DNA of 64,000 bases, taken from NCBI GenBank assembly GCA_030698625.1, contig JAUYMS010000048.1, positions 154,404 to 218,403 of the forward strand, in the 5' to 3' direction. The notes under the pieces were generated by a model. The model saw nothing but the letters and a program-made list of their open reading frames with translations. It did no database searches and had not been told where the DNA came from. The translations under genes and the position numbers were made by a program. Below are positions 23,825 through 45,449 of the stretch, one piece after another (the first letter of the stretch is position 1; every line of letters begins with the position of its first letter). Origin of the DNA: Candidatus Omnitrophota bacterium. GTDB taxonomy: Bacteria; Omnitrophota; Omnitrophia; Omnitrophales; Aquincolibacteriaceae.

Positions 23825-25507
23825 ATGAAATTGACCGGTGCACAGATTATGATCAAATCTCTGGAAGCAGAAGGTGTGGACTATGTGTTCGGTCTCCCCG
23901 GAGGCGCGATCCTCCCGACTTTTGATGCCTTATACGATTCCAAAAAGCTCAAGTTTATCTTGGTGCGCCACGAACAAGGCGCCTCTCACATGGCCGATGG
24001 GTATGGGCGCGCTACGGGGCGCCCCGGTGTTTGCCTGGTGACCTCAGGACCGGCAGCAACGAATACCGTGACAGGGCTTGCGACGGCCTATATGGATTCA
24101 GCGCCTATGGTTTGCATTACAGGCCAGGTAGCGACGGGTGTGATCGGCAGTGATGCATTTCAGGAAGCAGATGTCTGCGGCATTACGCGACCGGTCACAA
24201 AACACAATTATTTAATTAAGGACGTCCGCGACGTCGCGCGTACGGTTAAAGAGGCATTTTATATCGCGAAGACGGGTCGTCCGGGACCTGTTCTGATTGA
24301 TTTTCCGGTGGATGTCTCTCGCGCTACGACAGAGTTTGACTATCCGGATTCGGTGGACATTCGCGGCTACGAAGTTCCCTCAAAAGGGAATCCTGTCAAT
24401 ATTCAGCGAGCCGCTGATCTAATCAATAAAAGCAAAAGGCCCTGCCTCTACGTCGGCGGCGGTGCAGTCGTTTCCGGTGCGCAAAAGGAAGTCGTCGAAT
24501 TGGTCGAGAAGACCGGAATTCCGATTACGACGACAGTCCTAGGTTTGGGAATATTCCCCGAGAATCATCCCTCGTCGCTGCGCATGCTGGGAATGCACGG
24601 CACAGTGTATGCGAACTATACTGTGCAGCGCTCGGACCTACTTATCGCAATCGGCGCGCGGTTTGACGACCGTGTTACGGGTAATATTCAAAAGTTCTGC
24701 CCGCAGGCCAAGATTATTCATGTGGATATTGATCCCGCATCGATTTCTAAGACCGTTCACGTTGACGTTGACATTGTCGGCGACGTTAAACCCGTGTTGA
24801 AGCAACTCAATAAGTTGGTGACAAACCGGCGCGGCAAGATTCGAGACTGGTTGAAGCAAGTGCAGGAGTGGAAGGACAAGCATCCGCTTAAATATCGCAA
24901 AGAGACTCAGGAACTCCAACAAGAACACATTATTCGGAAAATAGGTGAGATTACGAAACACAACGCGGTTGTCGCGACGGGAGTGGGTCAACATCAGATG
25001 TGGACAGCCCAATGGTATCAATTTGCCGCGCCGCGGAGCATGATTACCTCAGGAGGTCTTGGCACCATGGGTTACGGTTTTCCTGCTGCGATCGGAGCGC
25101 AACTCGGTCGGCCGGGTGAGACGGTTGTTTGTATTGACGGCGACGGGTCTACGCAAATGACCATGTGTGAACTTGCGACTGCCGCCTATTACAAAATTCC
25201 GGTCAAGCTGTTTATCATGGATAACGAGCATCATGGCATGGTGCGCCAATGGCAGGAACTCTTCTATCGTGAACGTTATTCGGGATCACAGACCGGGCCA
25301 TCGAACCCCAACTTTATTAAGCTTGCTGATGGGTATGGCGTGCAGGCGTTCAGTATGACCCAAAAGGAAGACGTGGAAAAGGTTATCAAACAAGCGCTGG
25401 CTCATAAGGGACCGGTGCTCGTGCATTGCCGCGTGGAAAAAAAGGGTAACGTGTATCCTATGGTTCCCGCAGGTCACGCGCTCGATCAAGTTATGGATAT
25501 GGCGTAA
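23825..25507 (+). CDS. ilvB: Acetolactate synthase large subunit (biosynthetic, ThDP-dependent)
   Basis: 560 aa with the ThDP-binding GDG...N motif (IDGDGS...MDNEHHGMV) and an FAD-binding region. Confidence 0.93.
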   Translation: MKLTGAQIMIKSLEAEGVDYVFGLPGGAILPTFDALYDSKKLKFILVRHEQGASHMADGYGRATGRPGVCLVTSGPAATNTVTGLATAYMDSAPMVCITGQVATGVIGSDAFQEADVCGITRPVTKHNYLIKDVRDVARTVKEAFYIAKTGRPGPVLIDFPVDVSRATTEFDYPDSVDIRGYEVPSKGNPVNIQRAADLINKSKRPCLYVGGGAVVSGAQKEVVELVEKTGIPITTTVLGLGIFPENHPSSLRMLGMHGTVYANYTVQRSDLLIAIGARFDDRVTGNIQKFCPQAKIIHVDIDPASISKTVHVDVDIVGDVKPVLKQLNKLVTNRRGKIRDWLKQVQEWKDKHPLKYRKETQELQQEHIIRKIGEITKHNAVVATGVGQHQMWTAQWYQFAAPRSMITSGGLGTMGYGFPAAIGAQLGRPGETVVCIDGDGSTQMTMCELATAAYYKIPVKLFIMDNEHHGMVRQWQELFYRERYSGSQTGPSNPNFIKLADGYGVQAFSMTQKEDVEKVIKQALAHKGPVLVHCRVEKKGNVYPMVPAGHALDQVMDMA

Positions 25508-31516: not shown

Positions 31517-32012
31517 TAATATTTATCTCATTGGCATGATGGGTGCGGGTAAGACCGTGGCCGGTAAACAGATGGCTAAGCATCTCAAACGGCCTTTTGT
31601 GGATGTGGATAGCGCTATTGAGCAAAGCGAGGGTATGAAGATTCGGGAGATTTTTAAGAAGAAGGGCGAGAAGTACTTTCGTGACGTCGAATCAAGAGTG
31701 CTCGAAGAGATTGCTTCGGGAGAATGCCAAGTTGTCGGAACTGGTGGGGGTATTGTCAGAAGCGAAAAAAATATTGCCTGTATGAAATCCACGGGGAAGG
31801 TCGTGTATCTCGAGGCGTCCTCAGAGGTTTTGTGGAAGAGAGTCCATGGGGACAGAGATCGGCCTTTGGTTCAGAGCGAGAGTGATTTTGAAGAGCTTTT
31901 AGCCGAGCGAAAGCCGGCTTATGAAAGGGCGAGTGCTGTAACCGTTAACTCAGAACAGAGTCTTTCGCAAATGCTCGAGGATATCAAAAAGGGGTTGGCA
32001 GGTACGGCATGA
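31509..32012 (+). CDS. aroK: Shikimate kinase
   Basis: IYLIGMMGAGKT is the Walker A motif. Start set at ATG 31509, an 8-nt overlap with aroC. Confidence 0.88.
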   Translation: MPDNIYLIGMMGAGKTVAGKQMAKHLKRPFVDVDSAIEQSEGMKIREIFKKKGEKYFRDVESRVLEEIASGECQVVGTGGGIVRSEKNIACMKSTGKVVYLEASSEVLWKRVHGDRDRPLVQSESDFEELLAERKPAYERASAVTVNSEQSLSQMLEDIKKGLAGTA

Positions 32013-35015: not shown

Positions 35016-35426
35016 ATGAGGAAAAAAACGCCGAAAAAAAAGCATAATACAAAAAGGACCCGAGCGGCCAAGAGGAAATCAAGAGTTATCCCCTCTGATA
35101 GCCTTGAGATGCATGAATATCTGACCAAGATTCAGGAGGAGATTGATCGTCTCACTGACCTTTCAGACAAGAGCGAGGAAAGGTTGCAGGACATTGAGAT
35201 TCACATTAACCTTCTAACTCGTTTGATTACAACTCTTTGTGTTGAAAAGTTCGGCATGCGAGTCGGGGTTTTGAAGCGCCTCATTAAGAGGGTCGAGAAA
35301 GAGGCCATCCGAGACTCACAGATTTTGCATTTGGAATCCATCTACAGCCTCCCCGTACGATCAGACAAGAAGCGCCAACCCTGGAATCCTCCCCGCCGCG
35401 AAGATCCTTGGGATGACATAGCGTAA
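35016..35426 (+). CDS. Hypothetical protein with a highly basic Lys/Arg-rich N-terminal tail and a coiled-coil region
   Basis: MRKKTPKKKHNTKRTRAAKRKSR... No recognisable domain. Its GC content looks lower than that of its neighbours. Confidence 0.45.
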   Translation: MRKKTPKKKHNTKRTRAAKRKSRVIPSDSLEMHEYLTKIQEEIDRLTDLSDKSEERLQDIEIHINLLTRLITTLCVEKFGMRVGVLKRLIKRVEKEAIRDSQILHLESIYSLPVRSDKKRQPWNPPRREDPWDDIA

Positions 35427-35445: not shown

Positions 35446-35509
35446 TTACAATTTTAAATCCCTACGTCCTATAATCAAAGTTTACAATTCCCGCCGTATT
35501 GCTTACAAT
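35446..35509 (+). repeat. Three direct copies of TTACAAT (35446, 35482, 35503) plus a TATAAT (35470) within 65 bp upstream of the thiS-topA ORF; multiple -10-like elements or a regulator binding array
   Basis: Read directly from the sequence. The spacings are 36 and 21 bp. Confidence 0.4.
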
Positions 35510-35588: not shown

Positions 35589-38048
35589 ATGAAAATTTAT
35601 GTGAATGGCGAGGAGCGCGGTGTTACCCAGACGGTTACCATCAGTGAGCTTCTTGAAAATTTTGGGATTAAGGCCACGGCGGTCGTCATTGAGCGCAATG
35701 GGGAAGTCGTATCCCGCGATGATATTACTCGAACGGTTCTAGCTGACGGTGATCGGATTGAAATCGTACAATTTGTCGGAGGTGGCTCCATGAATGATGA
35801 CGACACCACACCTCCGGAGGTGTCTCCCGAACCGCAGGTAGCAACCGAGCCAGAAAAGCCCGCCAAAAAGGTCGCTAAAAAGAAAAGCACCGTTAAGAAA
35901 AAAAAGGCCCCTAAAAAGACTGACAAGAAGTCTGCTAAGAAGTCACCGGCCCTCAAGGGACCCAAGAATCTCGTAATCGTAGAATCACCTGCTAAGGCAA
36001 AGACGATCAACAAATTTTTGGGTAATGATTTCGTCGTTGAGGCCTCTATGGGGCATGTCCGTGACTTACCCAAGAGTAAGATGGGCGTTGATCTCGAGAA
36101 GGGTGATTTTGAACCCCACTACATTGTTATTCGCAAAGCCTCAAAGACGGTTAAGCATCTCAAAAAAGTCGCGAAATACGCTGAAACCATCTATCTTGCT
36201 CCGGATCCTGACCGCGAGGGAGAAGCTATAAGTTGGCATTTAGAACATATCTTTCGTGAGCTTAACGCCGAAACGCAAATACGCCGCGTCGCCTTCAATG
36301 AAATCACCAAGGATGCTATCCTCGAGGCCTTTCAGCATCCCCGCGAGATCGCCATGAATCTCGTTGATGCTCAACAGGCACGAAGGATTCTTGACCGAAT
36401 TGTCGGTTATGAGTTGAGTCCGCTTCTGTGGAAAAAAATCGGTCGAGGGTTAAGCGCGGGTAGAGTGCAGTCGGTGGCATTACGAGTGATCGTAGATCGC
36501 GAGCGCGAAATCAAGAAATTTGTAGCACAGGAATACTGGTCATTAGTGGCGAAACTCCTGAGTTCGAGAGCCGAAAATGCAGACAAGCCGTTTACGTCCA
36601 AACTCGAAAAAATTGGTGAGGAAAAGGCAGATCTTAAAAACAGGGCTCAGACTGCGGAAATCCGAGATGAAATCCTGAAGTCAACTTTTAAAGTCGAGAA
36701 GGTGGATAAACGTGAACGCCGCCGACGTCCCCAAGCCCCTTTCACGACGAGTAAACTTCAGCAGGAAGGCTACAACCGGTTGCGTTTTCCGGCTGCCAAG
36801 ACCATGAGAGTTGCTCAAAAGCTGTATGAGGGCGTGGAACTGGCCGACAAGGAAACCACCGGTCTGATTACCTATATGCGTACCGACTCCGTCAACATTG
36901 CTCCGAGTGCGCAACAAGATGCGGCTGAGTATATTCGGGGCCGTTTTGGCGATAAGTTTCTACCGGAGAAGCCTCCGACGTATCGTTCCAAGAAAGGCGC
37001 CCAGGAGGCTCACGAAGCAATTCGGCCGACTTCTATTCGCCGTGATCCGCAGAGCATGAAGAGTTTTCTGGCGGACGATGAATACAAGCTCTATGAACTG
37101 ATCTGGGGCAAATTTGTGGCGTCGCAGATGACTCCTGCAATTGACGAACTCATTTCGATTTCTATCCTCGCCGGGGACAAATATTACTTCAAGACAACCG
37201 GGCAACGAAATCTTTTCCCTGGCTTCACGGTGGCCTATGGCACTGCGAAGGCGGAAAAGAGTGAGAAGCAGAATGCCGAGGGCGAAGATACTGACGATGA
37301 TGACAAGGATCTTCCCGTCTTAGAGGTCGGAGAAATTTTGGAGCTCAAGGAACTGATGGGGTACCAGCATTTTACGAAGCCGCCAAGTCGGTACAATGAC
37401 GCAAGTTTGGTTAAGACGCTCGAAGAAGACGGCATCGGTCGTCCTAGTACCTATGCGCCGATCATCTATACCCTCCTTTCGCGAGAGTATGTCAATCGTA
37501 AGGGTGGGGCGCTAATCCCCACTGACTTGGGTGAAACGGTTGTTGATTCCTTGGTGGAATACTTCCCCAATGTCGTCAATGTGGAGTTTACCGCAGGCAT
37601 GGAAGAAAAGTTGGATAAAGTCGAAGACGGTGCCCTGAAATGGATTGATGTGATCCGTGAATTCTATGGGCCCTTTCAGACATTGCTCGTGAAGGCCCGT
37701 GAGGATATGAAGAACATTCGCCGTGAGGTGATTCCTACCGACCGCACCTGTGATTTGTGCGAGAAGCCCATGGTTATTCGCATGGGGCGTTTTGGGAGGT
37801 TCATGGCGTGCTCCGGGTTCCCGGAGTGTAAATACACGCGCTCCATTCCTACGGGGTTCTATTGTACCGAAGAGGGGTGCGGTGGCGAGCTCGTCAAGCG
37901 CCGCTCAAAGAACCGCCGCACTTTTTACGGCTGCTCCAAATATCCCACGTGTACTTATATTGTCAATAAGCTTCCGAAGAAAGAAGGAGAGGAGGATATG
38001 GACGACGGGCAGGTCTCTGAGCCTGCGCGGGAGACATTAGGGCCCTAA
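35589..38048 (+). CDS. topA: DNA topoisomerase I with an unusual N-terminal extension: a complete ThiS-like sulfur-carrier (beta-grasp) domain ending in GG (35589-35786), a Pro/Glu/Lys-rich histone-H1-like basic linker (35787-35966), then a canonical TopA (TOPRIM, Tyr domain, C-terminal Zn-ribbon repeats)
   Basis: The first 66 aa MKIYVNGEERG...DGDRIEIVQFVGGG align end-to-end with ThiS (compare the B. subtilis ThiS ending ...EIVHFVGGG). There is no stop codon between this domain and NLVIVESPAKAKTI, the normal TopA N-terminus. The C-terminus has CDLCEKPM and CSGFPECKYT zinc ribbons. Confidence 0.8.
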   Translation: MKIYVNGEERGVTQTVTISELLENFGIKATAVVIERNGEVVSRDDITRTVLADGDRIEIVQFVGGGSMNDDDTTPPEVSPEPQVATEPEKPAKKVAKKKSTVKKKKAPKKTDKKSAKKSPALKGPKNLVIVESPAKAKTINKFLGNDFVVEASMGHVRDLPKSKMGVDLEKGDFEPHYIVIRKASKTVKHLKKVAKYAETIYLAPDPDREGEAISWHLEHIFRELNAETQIRRVAFNEITKDAILEAFQHPREIAMNLVDAQQARRILDRIVGYELSPLLWKKIGRGLSAGRVQSVALRVIVDREREIKKFVAQEYWSLVAKLLSSRAENADKPFTSKLEKIGEEKADLKNRAQTAEIRDEILKSTFKVEKVDKRERRRRPQAPFTTSKLQQEGYNRLRFPAAKTMRVAQKLYEGVELADKETTGLITYMRTDSVNIAPSAQQDAAEYIRGRFGDKFLPEKPPTYRSKKGAQEAHEAIRPTSIRRDPQSMKSFLADDEYKLYELIWGKFVASQMTPAIDELISISILAGDKYYFKTTGQRNLFPGFTVAYGTAKAEKSEKQNAEGEDTDDDDKDLPVLEVGEILELKELMGYQHFTKPPSRYNDASLVKTLEEDGIGRPSTYAPIIYTLLSREYVNRKGGALIPTDLGETVVDSLVEYFPNVVNVEFTAGMEEKLDKVEDGALKWIDVIREFYGPFQTLLVKAREDMKNIRREVIPTDRTCDLCEKPMVIRMGRFGRFMACSGFPECKYTRSIPTGFYCTEEGCGGELVKRRSKNRRTFYGCSKYPTCTYIVNKLPKKEGEEDMDDGQVSEPARETLGP

Positions 38049-41379: not shown

Positions 41380-43335
41380 ATGACGAAATCTCCTCGACTC
41401 GAATGGTTAAGTCTTTTTGCAGTGCGCGGTTTCTCACTGGTGGTTACGCGTTTGCCCGAGAGCAGTGCGCTCGTCCTGGGCCGCTTTTGCGGGCGAGTGG
41501 CCTTTATTTTTTCAAACCGCAGACGGGTTGCCTATGCAGACCTGAAAGCAGCCTTCGGGAATCGCTATAGCCCCTCTGCGCGGTGGCAGATCATCAGGCA
41601 GCATTACGGCCATATGGGCCAATCCGCTGTTGAGATGATCCGTTTTCCGCAGCTCGACGCTGGATTTGTTGAAGATAAAGTGCGCATTCATCACTTCGAG
41701 AGGTTTAAATCGCTTACTGATCAAGGTCATGGCGCAATCCTGCTGACGGCGCATATCGGAAACTGGGAATTGATTCAGATCATCTCGGGACTACTTAACA
41801 AGCCGATTCACGTGTTGGGTCGAGACCAACGGTCCGCGGGCATGACGAAATTACTTGCGAAATACAGGCAAGCCCACGGCTCCGTGGCCGTCAGCCGCGG
41901 TATCAATCTGAGAGATTTTGTCCGGGCCATTCGCAGGGGAGAGATGGTGGGATTGCTCGGAGATCAGTCTGCCGGAAAGCACCAAGGCTTGATATTGCCG
42001 TTCATGGGAAGAAAAACCACAGTGCCGACAGGCGCATTTGAATTGGCAAAACGTACCGGGGTTCCGATTCTGCCTTGTTTTATCGTCCGTGACGGAAAGG
42101 GCGGCCACGAGATTTTTATCGAGGAGCCGATTCTCCCGATAAGGTCCGAAGCTTCGGATGAGGATCTTGCTAAAGCTGTGAAGGGTTACGTGCATCTGCT
42201 CGAGAGTATGATTTCTCGTTACCCGTATCAGTGGCTATGGGGGAAGAAGAGATGGAAATACGCTTGGACGAAACGTCTCCTTGTCCTCTCTGATGGCAAG
42301 GCCGGGCATGTGAAGCAGGTGGAAGCAGTTGTGCGGAATTTTAAAGAAATCCAGACTCAATATGATCGTCCGGGGATGGAATATCCGACGCAGGTCCTCG
42401 ACGTTCATTTCAAGTCAGACCAACACCGCAAATGGTTTGCGTGGATATGTCCGTTCTTCTTGCCGTGGGCACAGGGGCGAATAGGCAAGCTCCGGGCGTT
42501 CTTCACAAAGGAAACCCAGGATCAACTCGAGGAAGCGAGTGCCGACTTCATTATCTCTGCGGGCTCTAGTCTGACACCCTTAAATCTGTTTCTTGCTAAA
42601 GAGTGCCGTGCAAAAAGCGTGGTTCTGATGAAGCCGAGCTTTCCGTACAACTTGTTTCGTATTGACCTGGCCATCGTGCCGCTTCACGATCGGGGGCAGA
42701 TGCCGCGCGAAGCTATCCGTACCCTGCTGACGCCTAGTTGGTGGGAGCCCGATGAGGTCGAAGAGGCCAGCGAACGGCTAGCTCGCGAACTTCCGGCAAG
42801 AGATCGTGTTAAAGTGGGTGTCTTTCTCGGGGGAACGACGCGCCGGTATCGCATGGAAACGGGAAAAGTAAGACAGCTTTTAGATTCCCTCGAGCGACTC
42901 GAGTCTGCGGAGGGTGACTACATTATGACCACTTCGCGGCGCACGCCCGATGCGGTGACAGATTACTTGAAGGCAAACCGGGGCCAGTATCGGCGATGCC
43001 AGCAGTTGATTATCGCCGCCGAAGACAAGATGCCGGGGCGTATTGAGGGGATGATGGGGCTTGCCGAGGTCCTTGTGGTAACTGAGGACAGTATTTCGAT
43101 GATTTCAGAGGCCGTTAGCACGGATAAGCCCGTCGTAGTCCTTAACCTGGATTCGGAAAATCTACCGAATAAGCATCGTCGTTTTCAGGAACTTTTGGCG
43201 CAGAACGCCGCCGTCGTTTTTGCGGATCCTGAGAATATTGTGGAGAAGATCAGGAACGCAAGGGCGCAGTTGCGCGGCGGATGGTATACCAGGGACCAAG
43301 CCATACTGCGGGGAAGGCTTCAGGAAATACTATGA
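41380..43335 (+). CDS. lpxL: Fusion protein: N-terminal LpxL/HtrB-type lipid A late acyltransferase (LPLAT, ~300 aa) + C-terminal ELM1/DUF1022-family (PF06258, putative GT-B glycosyltransferase-like) domain
   Basis: The N-terminal half carries the HIGNWE (HX4E) catalytic motif and ends in PYQWLWGKKRWK, a typical LpxL C-terminus. The C-terminal half starts at LLVLSDGKAGHVKQ and contains TTSRRTP, the signature motifs of bacterial ELM1-family proteins. Confidence 0.7.
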   Translation: MTKSPRLEWLSLFAVRGFSLVVTRLPESSALVLGRFCGRVAFIFSNRRRVAYADLKAAFGNRYSPSARWQIIRQHYGHMGQSAVEMIRFPQLDAGFVEDKVRIHHFERFKSLTDQGHGAILLTAHIGNWELIQIISGLLNKPIHVLGRDQRSAGMTKLLAKYRQAHGSVAVSRGINLRDFVRAIRRGEMVGLLGDQSAGKHQGLILPFMGRKTTVPTGAFELAKRTGVPILPCFIVRDGKGGHEIFIEEPILPIRSEASDEDLAKAVKGYVHLLESMISRYPYQWLWGKKRWKYAWTKRLLVLSDGKAGHVKQVEAVVRNFKEIQTQYDRPGMEYPTQVLDVHFKSDQHRKWFAWICPFFLPWAQGRIGKLRAFFTKETQDQLEEASADFIISAGSSLTPLNLFLAKECRAKSVVLMKPSFPYNLFRIDLAIVPLHDRGQMPREAIRTLLTPSWWEPDEVEEASERLARELPARDRVKVGVFLGGTTRRYRMETGKVRQLLDSLERLESAEGDYIMTTSRRTPDAVTDYLKANRGQYRRCQQLIIAAEDKMPGRIEGMMGLAEVLVVTEDSISMISEAVSTDKPVVVLNLDSENLPNKHRRFQELLAQNAAVVFADPENIVEKIRNARAQLRGGWYTRDQAILRGRLQEIL

Positions 43336-45449
43336 AGGTACTCCAAGTATTACCCTCTCTGGATGTCGGAGGCGTAGAGCGCGGCGTTATTGATTTGGCG
43401 CGCGCCATGAGAAAAAGGGGCGAGGAGATTGTGGTGATCTCCTCCGGCGGAGCACTCGTTGCGCAGCTTCACAAGATGGGTGTGACCCACTACGCGCTTC
43501 CGGTACACAGGAAGTCTCTGTTTTCTTTGGCATTGGTTCCGCGGATCGCACGGATTATTCAGCGAGAACATGTCGATGTGGTGCATGCTCGCAGTCGTGT
43601 GCCCGCGTGGTTGGCTTGGCTTGCGGCACGCCAGACGCAGACGCCGTTTGTCACGACATGCCATGGCTATTATTCAAATCATCTTTTGAGTCGCGTGATG
43701 GGGTGGGGTAAGCGAGTCATCGTGATCTCTCGAATCATCGGCCGCCATATGATAGACGACTTCGGTGTAAGCCCCGAGCGCATTCGCCTGATTCACAGAG
43801 GGCTGGACTTACAGCACTTCACTCATCGGCCTATCGTGAAGCGTACTCCCCGTATTTTTCGTATTCTGAATATCGGCCGTTTGTCCCCCATCAAGGGACA
43901 GTTGGAGTTTCTCCGCGCTGTTCATTTGCTGCGGCGTGATTTGCAGCAGATAGAGGTGTGTCTTGTAGGGTCAGAAGGGAAGGGGAAACATAAATATACG
44001 GAACTCCTCAAGCAAACAGTCCGGCAATTGGGTTTGGAGGCTTGCGTGAAATTTCTCGGGACGCGTCGTGATATTCCCGAACTATTGAGGGGCGCGGACC
44101 TGCTTGTCCTTTCGACCTTGGTTCCGGAAGCCTTCGGGCGCGTCGTCATCGAGGCCGGTGCCGTCGGGTGCCCTGTCGTTTCAACCCGAGTCGGCGGTGT
44201 TCTCGACATTATCGACGAAGGCGAGAACGGTCGCTTGGTTCCTCCGGGGGATCCCGAAGCCATGGCGGCGGCAATGTTTGATAGCTTAACCAGTGTCGAG
44301 CAGTCAACCAGGCTTGCGGAAAATCTGCGCAAGAAGGTTGAAAATAATTTCACGCTGGACCAACTTGTTGATAAGACGATTGCTGTCTACGATGAAGTGA
44401 AAAAGGAGAAAAAGATTCTGGTTATCAAGCTTGGTGCGATGGGTGATGTGATTCTCGCGGTGCCCAGTCTTCGCATGCTCCGAGAACGCTTTCCGGACGC
44501 CTCAATCTCGGTTTTGGTCGATAAAAAGTTTGCTCCTCTTTTGAAGGGGTGTCCTTATATTCAGGAAGTGATTCCGGTGGAGCGGCGCAGATTTCCGCGG
44601 CTTCTTTATCTGCTGCGATTGGCCAAGTCTTTGAGGCGTGAAGGCTATGATGCTTCGGTGGATCTGCAGAATTCAAAATGGACTCATTTGCTAGCTTTTC
44701 TCGCAGCGATCCCAGAGCGTTTCGGGTTTCGTCGCGGCCATTTCGGTTTTCTCCTGAACCGGCCGGACCGTTTCTTCCGGGTGGCAGAGCCGCCGGTTAA
44801 AAATCAGTACCGCATACTCTCAAAAGTAGGTGTCCAGAAATGGGACGATCGTCTAGAGCTTTGGCCGGACGCGAAGTCAGAGAAAAAAGTCGATGAGGTG
44901 CTTGAGGAGTTTCTTAAAGATAGCAATTCATCGCGCCTGGTGGGATTTGTCCTCGGATCCAGTCCGAAGTGGCTGACAAAGAGATGGCCTCTTGAGAATT
45001 TTAAGGCCTTGGCGAGGCGGTTGCAGGAGTCAGAAAATACCCGCGTTGTTCTGATTGGCTCCGCGGAGGATGGGGAAATTGCCGACCAATTTTTGGCCGG
45101 TGAAACAGCACACGTTCTTAACATGGTGGGCAAGACATCGTCGCGTGAGCTCATACCTCTTGTGAAGCGGCTCGATGTCCTTGTGACGGGCGATACGGCG
45201 CCGCTGCATGTGGCGAGCGCCGTCGGCACGGATATCGTCGCGCTTTTTGGACCCACGGACCCGAAGCGCCATATGCCTCCGGGCAACAACCATGTCGTGA
45301 TTAATCGAAGGTTGGCCTGCCAGCCTTGTTATCGGGGGACCTGTTCGAATGAGGAGGACCTCGCTTGTCTAAGACAGATTTCGATCGAAGAGGTTTTTAA
45401 CGCAGTGCGCAAGAAACTGAATTCTCTGGTCGTGGAAGCAAGGGCGTAA
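43332..45449 (+). CDS. Two-domain glycosyltransferase: N-terminal GT4 (group 1, WaaG-like) + C-terminal GT9 (heptosyltransferase, RfaF/WaaC-like)
   Basis: The N-terminus has MKVLQVLPSLDVGGVERGV and EAFGRVVIEAGAVGCPVVSTRVGG, a GT4 E-x7-E region. The C-terminus has ILVIKLGAMGDVILAVPSLRML...VTGDTAPLHVASAVGTDIVALFGPTDP, which are GT9 hallmarks. ATGA overlap with the upstream gene. Confidence 0.78.
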   Translation: MKVLQVLPSLDVGGVERGVIDLARAMRKRGEEIVVISSGGALVAQLHKMGVTHYALPVHRKSLFSLALVPRIARIIQREHVDVVHARSRVPAWLAWLAARQTQTPFVTTCHGYYSNHLLSRVMGWGKRVIVISRIIGRHMIDDFGVSPERIRLIHRGLDLQHFTHRPIVKRTPRIFRILNIGRLSPIKGQLEFLRAVHLLRRDLQQIEVCLVGSEGKGKHKYTELLKQTVRQLGLEACVKFLGTRRDIPELLRGADLLVLSTLVPEAFGRVVIEAGAVGCPVVSTRVGGVLDIIDEGENGRLVPPGDPEAMAAAMFDSLTSVEQSTRLAENLRKKVENNFTLDQLVDKTIAVYDEVKKEKKILVIKLGAMGDVILAVPSLRMLRERFPDASISVLVDKKFAPLLKGCPYIQEVIPVERRRFPRLLYLLRLAKSLRREGYDASVDLQNSKWTHLLAFLAAIPERFGFRRGHFGFLLNRPDRFFRVAEPPVKNQYRILSKVGVQKWDDRLELWPDAKSEKKVDEVLEEFLKDSNSSRLVGFVLGSSPKWLTKRWPLENFKALARRLQESENTRVVLIGSAEDGEIADQFLAGETAHVLNMVGKTSSRELIPLVKRLDVLVTGDTAPLHVASAVGTDIVALFGPTDPKRHMPPGNNHVVINRRLACQPCYRGTCSNEEDLACLRQISIEEVFNAVRKKLNSLVVEARA

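What the first reader, a model, noticed from the sequence alone, without database searches (positions are those of the whole stretch)
35589..38048. In-frame fusion of a complete ThiS-like sulfur-carrier domain to the N-terminus of DNA topoisomerase I
The first 66 codons encode a textbook ThiS: MKIYVNGE...DGDRIEIVQFVGGG, beta-grasp, ending in the Gly-Gly that is normally the free C-terminus carrying the thiocarboxylate. Instead of a stop codon, the frame continues. A 60-aa acidic-then-lysine-rich segment (PEKPAKKVAKKKSTVKKKKAPKKTDKKSAKKSPALKGPK, H1-like) follows, and then the canonical TopA start NLVIVESPAKAKTI. No thiF, thiG, thiH or thiO genes lie nearby, so this is not a thiamine operon. A ubiquitin-like GG domain upstream of a large enzyme recalls eukaryotic ubiquitin-ribosomal-protein fusions. 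It also recalls bacterial CysO/QbsE precursors, which a JAMM protease trims after the GG. Possible interpretations are a cleavable Ubl tag, a regulatory or sulfur-transfer module on TopA, a domesticated DNA-binding N-tail, or an assembly or frameshift artefact that merged thiS with topA. The 8-A homopolymer at 35901-35908 is a potential slippage site, but it lies downstream of the GG junction.
Basis: partly seen in the sequence, partly recalled or inferred. Interest (0 to 1): 0.85.

Follow-up and report, generated by a model that had tools for sequence, protein, structure and literature searches.

The report
ThiS sulfur carrier fused to topoisomerase I
In many Omnitrophota bacteria the small ubiquitin-like sulfur-carrier protein ThiS is made as one chain with the essential enzyme DNA topoisomerase I; this is a real, conserved and apparently undescribed fusion that probably has to be cut after its Gly-Gly tail, much like ubiquitin-fusion genes in eukaryotes.

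Summary
Window 35589-38048 (+) is one uninterrupted ORF of 819 aa. Residues 1-66 are a full-length ThiS (NCBIfam TIGR01683, 71 bits against a cut-off of 37) ending in FVGGG. A 60-aa disordered linker follows, acidic then Lys-rich, and then a complete TopA.

It is not an artefact. At least 76 distinct proteins (<90% identity) from NCBI, JGI, ENA and Logan assemblies of Omnitrophota share this architecture. They sit at the same locus: dprA-RDD-hyp-[thiS]topA-xerC-waaA.

Relatives show two other states:
- thiS as a separate gene abutting or overlapping topA (four verified loci; ends GGG*, GGGS*, GGGA*, GGGSIHGR*).
- no thiS at all.

In the fusions GG is invariant. The next residue is Ser or Ala in 71% of cases and never Pro. 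The rest of the linker varies freely (5-76 aa). The Lys-rich tail belongs to TopA, because unfused relatives have it too.

Best explanation: thiS lodged between the topA promoter and topA, and has repeatedly fused with it and split from it. The fusion is then a Ubl-type precursor cut after GGG by an unidentified peptidase. Cleavage is inferred, not shown. The 64 kb hold no thi, E1 or JAMM genes. I found no publication on this fusion. I rate it a new variant of a known kind (MoaD-MoaE/MoaX, ThiS-ThiG, ubiquitin-ribosomal protein fusions).

The parts
35465..35509 (+). Conserved upstream element CGTCCTATAA (35465-35474) and promoter-like TTTACA-17-TACAAT (35481-35509) that drives thiS-topA
   Evidence: The motif CGTCC(T/G)ATAA-N7-8-TTTACAA is invariant in 7 aligned loci, whether fused, split or without thiS, and is also seen in L172. 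The promoter scan matches 10 of 12 positions. Its function is inferred.
35589..35786 (+). ThiS domain, residues 1-66 (MKIYVNGE...IEIVQFVGGG)
   Evidence: PF02597 E 2.8e-14; TIGR01683 71 bits against a cut-off of 37. It is 50-59% identical to Caulobacter/Brevundimonas ThiS. The best PDB sequence matches are ThiS chains 1TYG_B, 2K5P, 2CU3 and 1F0Z, aligned up to the terminal GG. AlphaFold pLDDT is 84-93 with a beta-beta-alpha-beta-beta-beta order.
35778..35792 (+). Junction: Gly64-Gly66 codons GGA GGT GGC (which form the Shine-Dalgarno-like GGAGGTG), Ser67, and the in-frame ATG of Met68. Proposed scissile bond Gly66|Ser67. Possible internal start for TopA.
   Evidence: Read from the sequence. 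The SD plus in-frame ATG occurs only in this window among the fused loci inspected. The same layout is the real topA start in split relatives (L170: GGA GGA GGT TCC TGA C ATG).
35787..35855 (+). Acidic, Pro-rich spacer, residues 67-89 (SMNDDDTTPPEVSPEPQVATEPE)
   Evidence: pLDDT below 50 for residues 64-121. The spacer is found in fused proteins and absent from split or unfused TopAs. In long linkers the N-half has mean net charge -1.3.
35856..35966 (+). Lys-rich N-terminal tail of TopA, residues 90-126
   Evidence: Unfused and split Omnitrophota TopAs start with an equivalent Lys-rich tail ending in GPK/GPS. The C-half of linkers has mean net charge +6.9. The eight-A run at 35898-35905 lies here.
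35967..38048 (+). Complete DNA topoisomerase I, residues 127-819 plus stop: Toprim 35970-36305, Topoisom_bac 36348-37655, two C4 zinc ribbons about 37743-37973
   Evidence: TIGR01051 776 bits against a cut-off of 456; Pfam domains. Toprim E132 and D206-x-D208, and the ITYMRTDS tyrosine (Y429), are invariant in 70 fused homologues. The AlphaFold model is confident for 122-798.

Best explanation
This is a real, lineage-wide gene fusion in the phylum Omnitrophota. A bona fide thiS gene came to lie between the topA promoter and topA. In some lineages it is a separate, translationally coupled gene. In most it has lost its stop codon, so ThiS, a disordered spacer and TopA are translated as one chain.

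I propose that the chain is a ubiquitin-like precursor. A trans-acting peptidase cuts after Gly66 (GGG|S/A). A JAMM/MPN+ type is the obvious candidate, but none has been identified. Cutting would release a 66-aa ThiS with the free Gly-Gly carboxylate it needs for adenylation and thiocarboxylate formation. It would also release a TopA carrying its usual Lys-rich N-tail.

Shown here:
- the architecture itself
- its conservation across assemblies
- its three evolutionary states (fused, split, absent)
- ThiS-type sequence constraints on the domain
- the constraint at the junction

Inferred: the cleavage, the protease, and what the released ThiS is used for.
For: (1) Not an artefact. 76 of the 120 closest TopA homologues (56-68% identity) carry ThiS in frame. 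They are distinct 90%-identity clusters from NCBI, JGI, ENA and Logan. Further fused loci come from the metagenome and genome scans (L120, L125, L128, L159, L008). All inspected loci share the dprA-...-topA-xerC-waaA-lpxK synteny.

(2) The domain is constrained like a working ThiS. N6, G7, E35, N37, E58, G65 and G66 are invariant. Per-column conservation correlates with free ThiS at r=0.78, with the same invariant positions.

(3) The junction is constrained while the linker is not. GG is 100% conserved. The residue after GGG is S 28, A 26, K 10, R 4, other 8, and Pro 0 of 76. Yet Pro makes up 13.7% of linker residues and 16 of 76 at position +2. Linker length ranges from 5 to 76 aa. By my own calculation, which assumes independent sequences, (1-0.137)^76 is about 1e-5.

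(4) Fused and split states interconvert. A split clade has 93% bootstrap support and sits next to fused P0028 with 70% support; three of its eight members were checked directly. P0075 is split and nested among fused proteins. Where thiS is separate it ends at or just after GGG: GGG* in L171, GGGS* in L170, GGGA* in L006, GGGSIHGR* in L169. The first extra residue is again S or A. Easy interchange of states is expected if both yield the same two products.

(5) AlphaFold shows a folded ThiS body (residues 1-63) and a disordered GGG tail plus linker (64-121), so the site would be accessible.

(6) Precedents for obligatory cleavage of fused sulfur carriers after GG: MoaX (PMC4326299), DRJAMM acting on MoaD-MoaE (PMC8832034), and HvJAMM1 acting on SAMP1-MoaE (PMC4443979). 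Iyer et al. 2006 proposed the same for fused ThiS/MoaD (PMC1779556).

(7) The need to trim ThiS C-termini appears widespread. About 35 of 80 environmental thiS genes sampled carry 1-20 extra codons after GGG, and one is an in-frame ThiS-ThiG fusion.

(8) The organism uses TPP enzymes (acetolactate synthase, 23825-25507).
Against: - No protease, E1 (ThiF/MoeB), ThiG, Thi4 or ThiH/ThiO gene lies in the 64-kb window. None lies within 10 kb of the fused loci L002 and L003, nor in the stretches of L001 and L168 that cover the window.
- Cleavage is not demonstrated by any data here.
- A preprint on 176 complete Omnitrophota genomes reports thiG in only 38 of 176. A thiamine role for this ThiS is therefore not assured, and I could not test co-occurrence.
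- The Ser/Ala preference and Pro avoidance at +1 come from phylogenetically related sequences. They could instead reflect hinge requirements.
- Sequence conservation shows the domain is functional, not that it is released.
- The trees are neighbour-joining only.
Confidence: 0.55

Rival explanations
1. The fusion is real but is not cleaved. The ThiS beta-grasp stays on TopA as a cis-acting ubiquitin-like adaptor or regulatory domain. It might recruit TopA to a partner or sense the sulfur or E1 state, and the Gly-rich tail acts only as a hinge.
For: - thiS has stayed attached or adjacent to topA across deep Omnitrophota lineages, which by Rosetta-stone logic suggests a functional link.
- No thiamine or protease genes lie nearby.
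- thiG is rare in the phylum.
- Beta-grasp domains are common adaptors (PMC1949818).
Against: - TopA does without the domain. A large clade lacks thiS (L007 and L172 checked), as does the scattered lineage P0044 (L005), with no remnant detectable.
- Split lineages make ThiS as a free protein that ends at or near GGG.
- The invariant residues are those of free sulfur-carrier ThiS, including the terminal GG, which has no known role unless it is free.
- The linker has no conserved docking motif and is predicted to be disordered.
Confidence: 0.25
2. In this particular genome, TopA is mainly made from the internal start. The SD-like GGAGGTG sits 5 nt upstream of ATG 35790 (M68). The read-through ThiS-TopA chain would then be a minor product or by-product.
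For: The window has GGAGG followed by an in-frame ATG, at exactly the position of the topA start in the split relatives. In the NJ trees the window protein lies in the same part of the tree as that split clade, though the grouping is weakly supported (25% bootstrap).
Against: - With no stop codon after GGG, every ribosome that translates ThiS must continue into TopA. Free ThiS still cannot arise without cleavage.
- Three other fused loci were inspected for internal starts (L002, L003, L008). None has a start codon with an SD near the junction, so this cannot be the general solution.
- Met after GGG is unique to this sequence among the 76.
Confidence: 0.1
3. The ThiS part is a neutral relic. 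thiS lost its stop codon, lost its function, and survives only because it now supplies the start codon and ribosome-binding site of an essential gene.
For: The domain has been lost repeatedly without apparent harm. No pathway partners lie nearby.
Against: A relic would decay. Instead the domain keeps the ThiS-specific invariant residues and the GG across lineages whose TopA cores are only 54-68% identical. It scores far above the curated ThiS cut-offs and folds confidently. The adjoining linker has diverged freely in length and sequence.
Confidence: 0.07
4. Assembly, frameshift or gene-calling artefact that merged thiS with topA.
For: Split relatives exist, and converting a split junction to a fused one needs only a 1-4 nt change. 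An A8 run lies in the linker.
Against: The same reading frame is found in at least 76 distinct clusters from four data sources and many samples. It is also found in a second assembly of the same run. The A-run lies downstream of the junction, and the frame is intact on both sides of it.
Confidence: 0.01

Closest known systems
MoaD-MoaE fused molybdopterin synthases (M. tuberculosis MoaX; D. radiodurans MoaD-MoaE cut by DRJAMM; H. volcanii SAMP1-MoaE cut by HvJAMM1)
   Same: A ThiS/MoaD-type beta-grasp sulfur carrier sits at the N-terminus and ends in Gly-Gly, followed in frame by another protein. Cleavage after GG is required for activity (PMC4326299, PMC8832034, PMC4443979).
   Different: There the partner is the carrier's own pathway enzyme. 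Here it is an unrelated essential DNA enzyme. No cleavage or protease has been shown here.
ThiS-ThiG, ThiS-sulfite reductase, MoaD-AOR and Ubl-ThiF fusions catalogued by Iyer, Burroughs and Aravind 2006
   Same: These are prokaryotic ThiS/MoaD domains fused to other proteins. The authors proposed that a JAB peptidase frees the C-terminus (PMC1779556). One ThiS-ThiG fusion was seen here (L156).
   Different: All the catalogued partners are sulfur or cofactor enzymes. Neither that survey nor Burroughs 2007 mentions topoisomerase or Toprim at all.
Eukaryotic ubiquitin-ribosomal protein fusion genes (UBA52, RPS27A) and polyubiquitin precursors
   Same: A ubiquitin-fold protein ending in GG is encoded in frame upstream of an unrelated, abundant housekeeping protein and is released by GG-specific peptidases. 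This comparison rests on my own knowledge and was not tested here.
   Different: ThiS is a sulfur carrier rather than a protein modifier. No deubiquitinase-like enzyme is known for Omnitrophota. A long disordered spacer separates the two parts here.
CysO/Mec+ and QbsE/QbsD (PdtH/PdtG) systems
   Same: These are ThiS/MoaD-like carriers whose C-terminus is exposed or regenerated by a JAMM peptidase (operon types 4a-4d in PMC1779556).
   Different: In those systems the JAMM and E1 genes lie in the same operon, and the extension is only a few residues or a small adduct. Here no such genes are nearby and the 'extension' is a 753-aa protein (spacer plus TopA).
Bacterial TopA with extra terminal modules (Lys-rich tails; Chlamydia TopA/SWI-domain fusion, NF004966)
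   Same: TopA tolerates added N- or C-terminal modules and basic tails (NF004966 match; Lys-rich N-tails).
   Different: Those additions are DNA- or chromatin-binding modules. A sulfur-carrier Ubl has not been reported among them.

Membership tests
ThiS sulfur-carrier protein (PF02597 / TIGR01683) | Sequence matches the family profile above the curated cut-off over the full length | tested here: met
   TIGR01683 scores 71.3 bits against a cut-off of 37.45 and covers profile 1-64 of 64. PF02597 scores 53.9 bits against 22.5. The domain is 50-59% identical to annotated ThiS of Caulobacterales.
ThiS sulfur-carrier protein (PF02597 / TIGR01683) | Ubiquitin-like beta-grasp fold | tested here: met
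   AlphaFold gives residues 1-63 a pLDDT of 84-93, with strands 2-5, 8-11, 33-36, 39-41 and 56-60 and a helix at 18-24. The best PDB sequence matches are solved ThiS chains. No structural (fold-level) search was run on the domain alone.
ThiS sulfur-carrier protein (PF02597 / TIGR01683) | Gly-Gly at the end of the domain | tested here: met
   The domain ends FVGGG at residues 62-66. GG is invariant in the aligned fused homologues, and all 76 fused N-termini show the [G/A]GG ending.
ThiS sulfur-carrier protein (PF02597 / TIGR01683) | The Gly-Gly is the free C-terminus of the gene product (needed for acyl-adenylate and thiocarboxylate formation) | tested here: not met
   There is no stop codon after GGG; the frame runs on for 753 codons. 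A free end would require proteolysis, which these tools cannot test.
ThiS sulfur-carrier protein (PF02597 / TIGR01683) | Genomic association with thiF/thiG/thiH/thiO (thiazole operon) or a TPP riboswitch | tested here: not met
   None is present in the 64 kb and there is no Rfam hit. None lies within 10 kb in L002, L003 or L006. Presence elsewhere in the genome could not be tested.
Bacterial DNA topoisomerase I (TIGR01051) | Full-length profile match above the cut-off, with Toprim, the Topoisom_bac core and C4 zinc ribbons | tested here: met
   776 bits against a cut-off of 456, covering profile 1-631 of 632. PF01751, PF01131 and two PF01396 stretches are found.
Bacterial DNA topoisomerase I (TIGR01051) | Catalytic residues present (Toprim Glu and DxD; active-site Tyr) | tested here: met
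   E132, D206, D208 and Y429 (in ITYMRTDS) are invariant columns in 70 fused homologues. Which residues are catalytic rests on my own knowledge of TopA.
Bacterial DNA topoisomerase I (TIGR01051) | Occupies the housekeeping topA locus | tested here: met
   The dprA-RDD-hyp-topA-xerC-waaA-lpxK synteny is shared with unfused relatives.
Ubiquitin-like fusion precursor (Ub-ribosomal protein, MoaX type) | An N-terminal Ubl ending in GG, followed in frame by a second, separately functional protein | tested here: met
   The two parts also exist as separate genes in relatives.
Ubiquitin-like fusion precursor (Ub-ribosomal protein, MoaX type) | Endoproteolytic cleavage directly after the GG | not testable with these tools
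   Only indirect support exists: no Pro at +1 in 76 sequences, Ser/Ala at +1 in 71%, and a disordered, accessible site.
Ubiquitin-like fusion precursor (Ub-ribosomal protein, MoaX type) | A cognate GG-specific peptidase (JAMM/MPN+ or other) encoded in the genome | tested here: inconclusive
   No JAB/MPN domain is present in the window or in the 10-kb flanks of related loci.

The most novel reading that the evidence does not exclude
The ThiS moiety may not be just a thiamine sulfur carrier that happens to sit next to topA. It may be a ubiquitin-like module functionally tied to topoisomerase I. It could stay on TopA as a cis-regulatory or adaptor domain. Alternatively it could be released by a GG-specific peptidase and used as a TtuB/SAMP-like modifier or carrier. 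Either reading would explain why thiS has remained fused or glued to topA through the history of a phylum in which most genomes are reported to lack thiG.
Probability: 0.2. Interest if true: 0.85.

Novelty: new variant of a known kind. Interest (0 to 1): 0.6.

Why it matters
All previously catalogued prokaryotic ThiS/MoaD fusions join the carrier to an enzyme of its own pathway. Here it is joined to an unrelated, essential DNA enzyme, and the arrangement is conserved across a phylum.

If the chain is cut after GGG, this would be a bacterial counterpart of eukaryotic ubiquitin-fusion genes. It would also imply an unidentified GG-directed endopeptidase in Omnitrophota. That bears on how ubiquitin-style precursor processing arose from sulfur-carrier systems.

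If the chain is not cut, it would be the first topoisomerase I carrying a built-in ubiquitin-like domain.

Either outcome can be tested with one recombinant protein or with metaproteomic data. The natural fused, split and absent series gives ready-made controls.

There is also a practical point for annotation. These proteins are currently named simply 'type I DNA topoisomerase', so the ThiS of these genomes is invisible to pathway reconstruction.

Tried and rejected
- **Genome-contig scan with the single protein.** The exact 8-mer patterns retrieved almost only distant TopAs of other phyla.
- **ThiS-only protein search.** The word index returned mainly Caulobacterales ThiS and no Omnitrophota ThiS. 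I therefore could not find a second, free thiS or use my contig-length matching idea.
- **Search of 50%-identity representatives with residues 1-204.** Fused proteins collapse into a few fragmentary representatives. This gave no useful estimate of breadth and showed no clear fusion outside this family.
- **Genome-wide census of thiG, thiF, thi4 and JAMM in fusion-bearing genomes.** This was not possible.
- **Supplement of the 2026 Omnitrophota preprint.** It has no per-genome thiS or thiG table.
- **Literature searches for a ThiS-topoisomerase fusion.** Nothing was found. Note that 'ThiS' cannot be searched cleanly because it matches the word 'this'.
- **AlphaFold on the ThiS-only alignment A1.** The full-length model was used instead.
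- **Autoproteolysis through an N-to-O acyl shift at Gly|Ser.** Considered and rejected, because position +1 is Ala, Lys or Arg in more than half of the sequences.
- **Programmed frameshift or termination to free ThiS.** Considered and rejected. Out-of-frame stops after GGG are not conserved (L002, L003 and L008 lack them), and any shift would add residues after GG.
- **L131 (split form on a 1-kb contig).** Set aside because its topA is itself frameshifted.


Full report
**1. What is in the sequence**

The window holds a single ORF on the + strand from 35583 (GTG) or, more plausibly, 35589 (ATG) to 38048. At the junction the DNA reads GTC GGA GGT GGC TCC ATG AAT. This encodes V63 G64 G65 G66 S67 M68 N69, and there is no stop codon.

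Pfam finds ThiS (PF02597) at residues 4-66. It finds Toprim at 128-239, the topoisomerase core at 254-689 and zinc ribbons from 719. NCBIfam's equivalog model for ThiS (TIGR01683) scores 71 bits against a cut-off of 37 and covers the whole profile up to the terminal Gly-Gly. The TopA equivalog (TIGR01051) scores 776 bits against 456.

By sequence, the best matches among solved structures are ThiS proteins of B. subtilis, Geobacter, Thermus and E. coli, each aligned through to the C-terminal GG. The domain is 50-59% identical to free ThiS of Caulobacterales.

**2. It is not an artefact**

Among the 120 closest TopA homologues in the 5.8-billion-protein collection, 76 carry the ThiS domain in frame. 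Each is a separate 90%-identity cluster, 56-68% identical to the query. They come from NCBI, JGI, ENA and Logan, and those that carry a name are annotated as Omnitrophota/Omnitrophica MAGs. A Logan assembly of run SRR13727534 gives the identical 819-aa protein.

Further fused loci came from the DNA scans: L008, L120, L125, L128 and L159. L120 and L159 are only about 54% identical in TopA. L120 nevertheless shows the same synteny, ilvC-leuA-aroE-pilD-aroC-aroK-dprA-[thiS-topA]-xerC-waaA.

**3. Three evolutionary states at one locus**

The neighbourhood aroB-dprA-RDD-(~135-aa protein)-topA-xerC-waaA-lpxK is shared by all relatives inspected. The states are:

- **Fused.** This is the majority state.
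- **Split.** thiS is a separate gene immediately upstream of topA.
  - L006: ends ...FVGGGA*, with TGATG stop/start overlap.
  - L169: ends ...GGGSIHGR*, with an 11-nt overlap.
  - L170: ends ...GGGS*, with 1 nt before the ATG.
  - L171: ends ...VGGG*, with a 17-nt spacer containing GAGGAG.
- **Absent.** L005, L007 and L172 have a 170-300-nt intergenic region and no ThiS remnant detectable by tblastn.

An upstream motif, CGTCC(T/G)ATAA-N7-8-TTTACAA, is invariant in all three states. In the window it overlaps a promoter-like TTTACA-17-TACAAT. thiS therefore sits between the topA promoter region and topA.

The neighbour-joining trees of the TopA core give the following picture:

- With four non-Omnitrophota outgroups, the fused L120/L159 lineage branches nearest the root. 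A large unfused group comes next, then the remaining fused clades.
- An eight-member unfused clade has 93% bootstrap support and groups with the fused P0028 at 70%. Three of its members (P0055, P0056, P0069) were verified as split.
- P0075 (split) and P0044 (absent) are nested among fused proteins.

Several transitions between states have therefore occurred. Their direction is not firmly resolved by these simple trees.

**4. Anatomy of the junction and linker**

Across 76 fused proteins the ThiS domain ends in an invariant GG, usually FVGGG. The linker ranges from 5 to 76 aa (median 37) and has no conserved motif. In long linkers the N-half is slightly acidic and the C-half strongly basic.

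The basic part is not new. Unfused and split TopAs begin with a similar Lys-rich tail ending in GPK/GPS, and Lys-rich N-tails occur on TopAs elsewhere. The acidic, Pro-rich spacer is specific to the fused state.

The residue right after GGG is Ser (28), Ala (26), Lys (10), Arg (4) or other (8), and never Pro. Pro is 13.7% of all linker residues and 16 of 76 at the next position. If the sequences were independent, the chance of no Pro would be about 1e-5. That figure is my own arithmetic, and the sequences are in fact related.

The split ThiS proteins that carry extra residues also begin them with Ser or Ala.

AlphaFold on a 70-sequence alignment gives three regions:

| Residues | Prediction |
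|---|---|
| 1-63 | confident beta-grasp (pLDDT 84-93) |
| 64-121 | pLDDT below 50, so the GGG tail and the whole linker are predicted disordered |
| 122-798 | confident TopA |

**5. Is the ThiS part still a ThiS?**

Its invariant positions (N6, G7, E35, N37, E58, G65, G66) are those of free ThiS. Per-column conservation in fused domains correlates with that of free ThiS at r=0.78. The TopA part keeps its Toprim acidic residues and its active-site tyrosine. Both halves therefore look functional.

**6. Mechanism**

A ThiS-type carrier works through its free C-terminal carboxylate. This is established biochemistry of ThiS/ThiF/ThiG and rests on my own knowledge plus PMC1779556. A stop-less fusion can only yield an active carrier if the chain is cut after GG.

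Six observations fit a precursor that is processed after Gly66:

- invariant GG
- a small, non-Pro residue after it
- an otherwise unconstrained, disordered spacer
- ThiS-type constraints on the domain
- free interchange with split forms that end at or just beyond GGG
- repeated loss without harm to TopA

Precedents exist: MoaX must be cleaved (PMC4326299), DRJAMM cleaves MoaD-MoaE (PMC8832034), and HvJAMM1 cleaves SAMP1-MoaE (PMC4443979). Iyer et al. proposed JAB-mediated release for fused ThiS/MoaD.

In a sample of 80 environmental thiS genes, about 35 carry 1-20 codons beyond GGG, and one is an in-frame ThiS-ThiG fusion. A need to trim ThiS therefore seems common.

What is missing is any direct evidence of cleavage, and any candidate peptidase. 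The whole window encodes housekeeping functions: nitrogen regulation, amino-acid biosynthesis, valS, uvrB, LPS core and lipid A genes, pyrG, and PTS components. It has no thi, E1 or JAB genes, no riboswitch and no tRNA gene.

A 2026 preprint reports thiE, thiC, thiL and iscS in nearly all of 176 complete Omnitrophota genomes, but thiG in only 38. The use of this ThiS therefore remains open. The organism does need TPP, because it encodes acetolactate synthase.

I put the precursor model at about 0.55. An uncleaved cis-acting Ubl domain is at about 0.25. Internal initiation as the main source of TopA in this genome is about 0.1. A neutral relic is about 0.07 and an artefact about 0.01.

**7. A feature of this window only**

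The Gly codons GGA GGT G form a Shine-Dalgarno-like GGAGGTG, followed by the in-frame ATG of M68. This is the layout of the true topA start in the split relative L170 (GGA GGA GGT TCC TGA C ATG); the window differs by the absence of the four bases TGAC. L002, L003 and L008 have no such internal start.

In this genome TopA might therefore also be initiated on its own. Free ThiS still could not arise without cleavage.

**8. Comparison with what is known, and novelty**

The two systematic surveys of prokaryotic ubiquitin-like domains list ThiS-ThiG, MoaD-MoaE, ThiS-sulfite reductase, MoaD-AOR, Ubl-ThiF and Ubl-Mut7-C fusions. They never mention topoisomerase or Toprim. Full-text searches found no description of a ThiS-TopA fusion. 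Public annotation calls these proteins simply 'type I DNA topoisomerase'.

The kind is known: a sulfur-carrier or Ubl precursor fused to another protein. The variant appears to be new, because the partner is an unrelated essential DNA enzyme and the arrangement is conserved across a phylum with natural split and absent forms. The closest conceptual parallel is the eukaryotic ubiquitin-ribosomal protein fusion, a comparison from my own knowledge.

**9. Limits**

- I could not examine whole genomes.
- The trees are neighbour-joining.
- The junction statistics use related sequences.
- All statements about cleavage, the peptidase and the physiological role of the released ThiS are inference.

Noticed in passing
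window 35465-35509; also L002, L003, L005, L006, L007, L008, L172 upstream of (thiS-)topA: The intergenic motif CGTCC(T/G)ATAA-N7-8-TTTACAA is invariant upstream of topA whether thiS is fused, split or absent. TTTACA looks like a -35 box paired with TACAAT. The GTCCGATAA part could be a regulator or UP-type site for topA in Omnitrophota.
   Followed up: partly
L088-L167 (metagenome thiS loci): About 35 of 80 environmental thiS genes encode 1-20 extra residues after the terminal GGG. This is often because the thiG start overlaps the thiS end. It implies that C-terminal trimming of ThiS may be common and is unstudied.
   Followed up: partly
L156:8001-8987 (3.26-Mb contig Ga0209902_100001): An in-frame ThiS-ThiG fusion of 328 aa, with linker DHAATVNDDSW after GGG. 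It poses the same free-C-terminus problem as the TopA fusion.
   Followed up: no
window 35016-35426 (+): A conserved protein of about 135 aa with no Pfam match lies directly upstream of topA. It has a Lys/Arg-rich N-terminus. It is present at this position in all fused, split and unfused Omnitrophota loci inspected except L120.
   Followed up: partly
window 41380-43335 and 43281-45449 (+): Two other in-frame multi-domain fusions sit in the same gene row: lipid A acyltransferase with an ELM1-like domain, and a GT4 glycosyltransferase with a GT9 heptosyltransferase. Both are conserved in relatives. Gene fusion seems frequent in this lineage, in line with the multi-enzyme giant proteins reported for the phylum.
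   Followed up: no
window 31517-32008: Relatives have shikimate kinase (aroK) between aroC and aroB. Here that slot holds only an 89-aa minus-strand ORF with no Pfam hit (31523-31792).
   Followed up: no
L131 (1081-bp contig, GC 0.63): An apparent split thiS (ending GGGSLKAVI*) followed by topA. The topA reading frame itself breaks after about 70 codons, so this is either a low-quality contig or a pseudogene. It was not used as evidence.
   Followed up: partly
P0250, P0304, P0307, P0329, P0368 and others: TopAs of other, unidentified lineages carry long Lys/Ala-rich, histone-H1-like N-terminal tails (50-150 aa) before the Toprim domain, without any ThiS.
   Followed up: no
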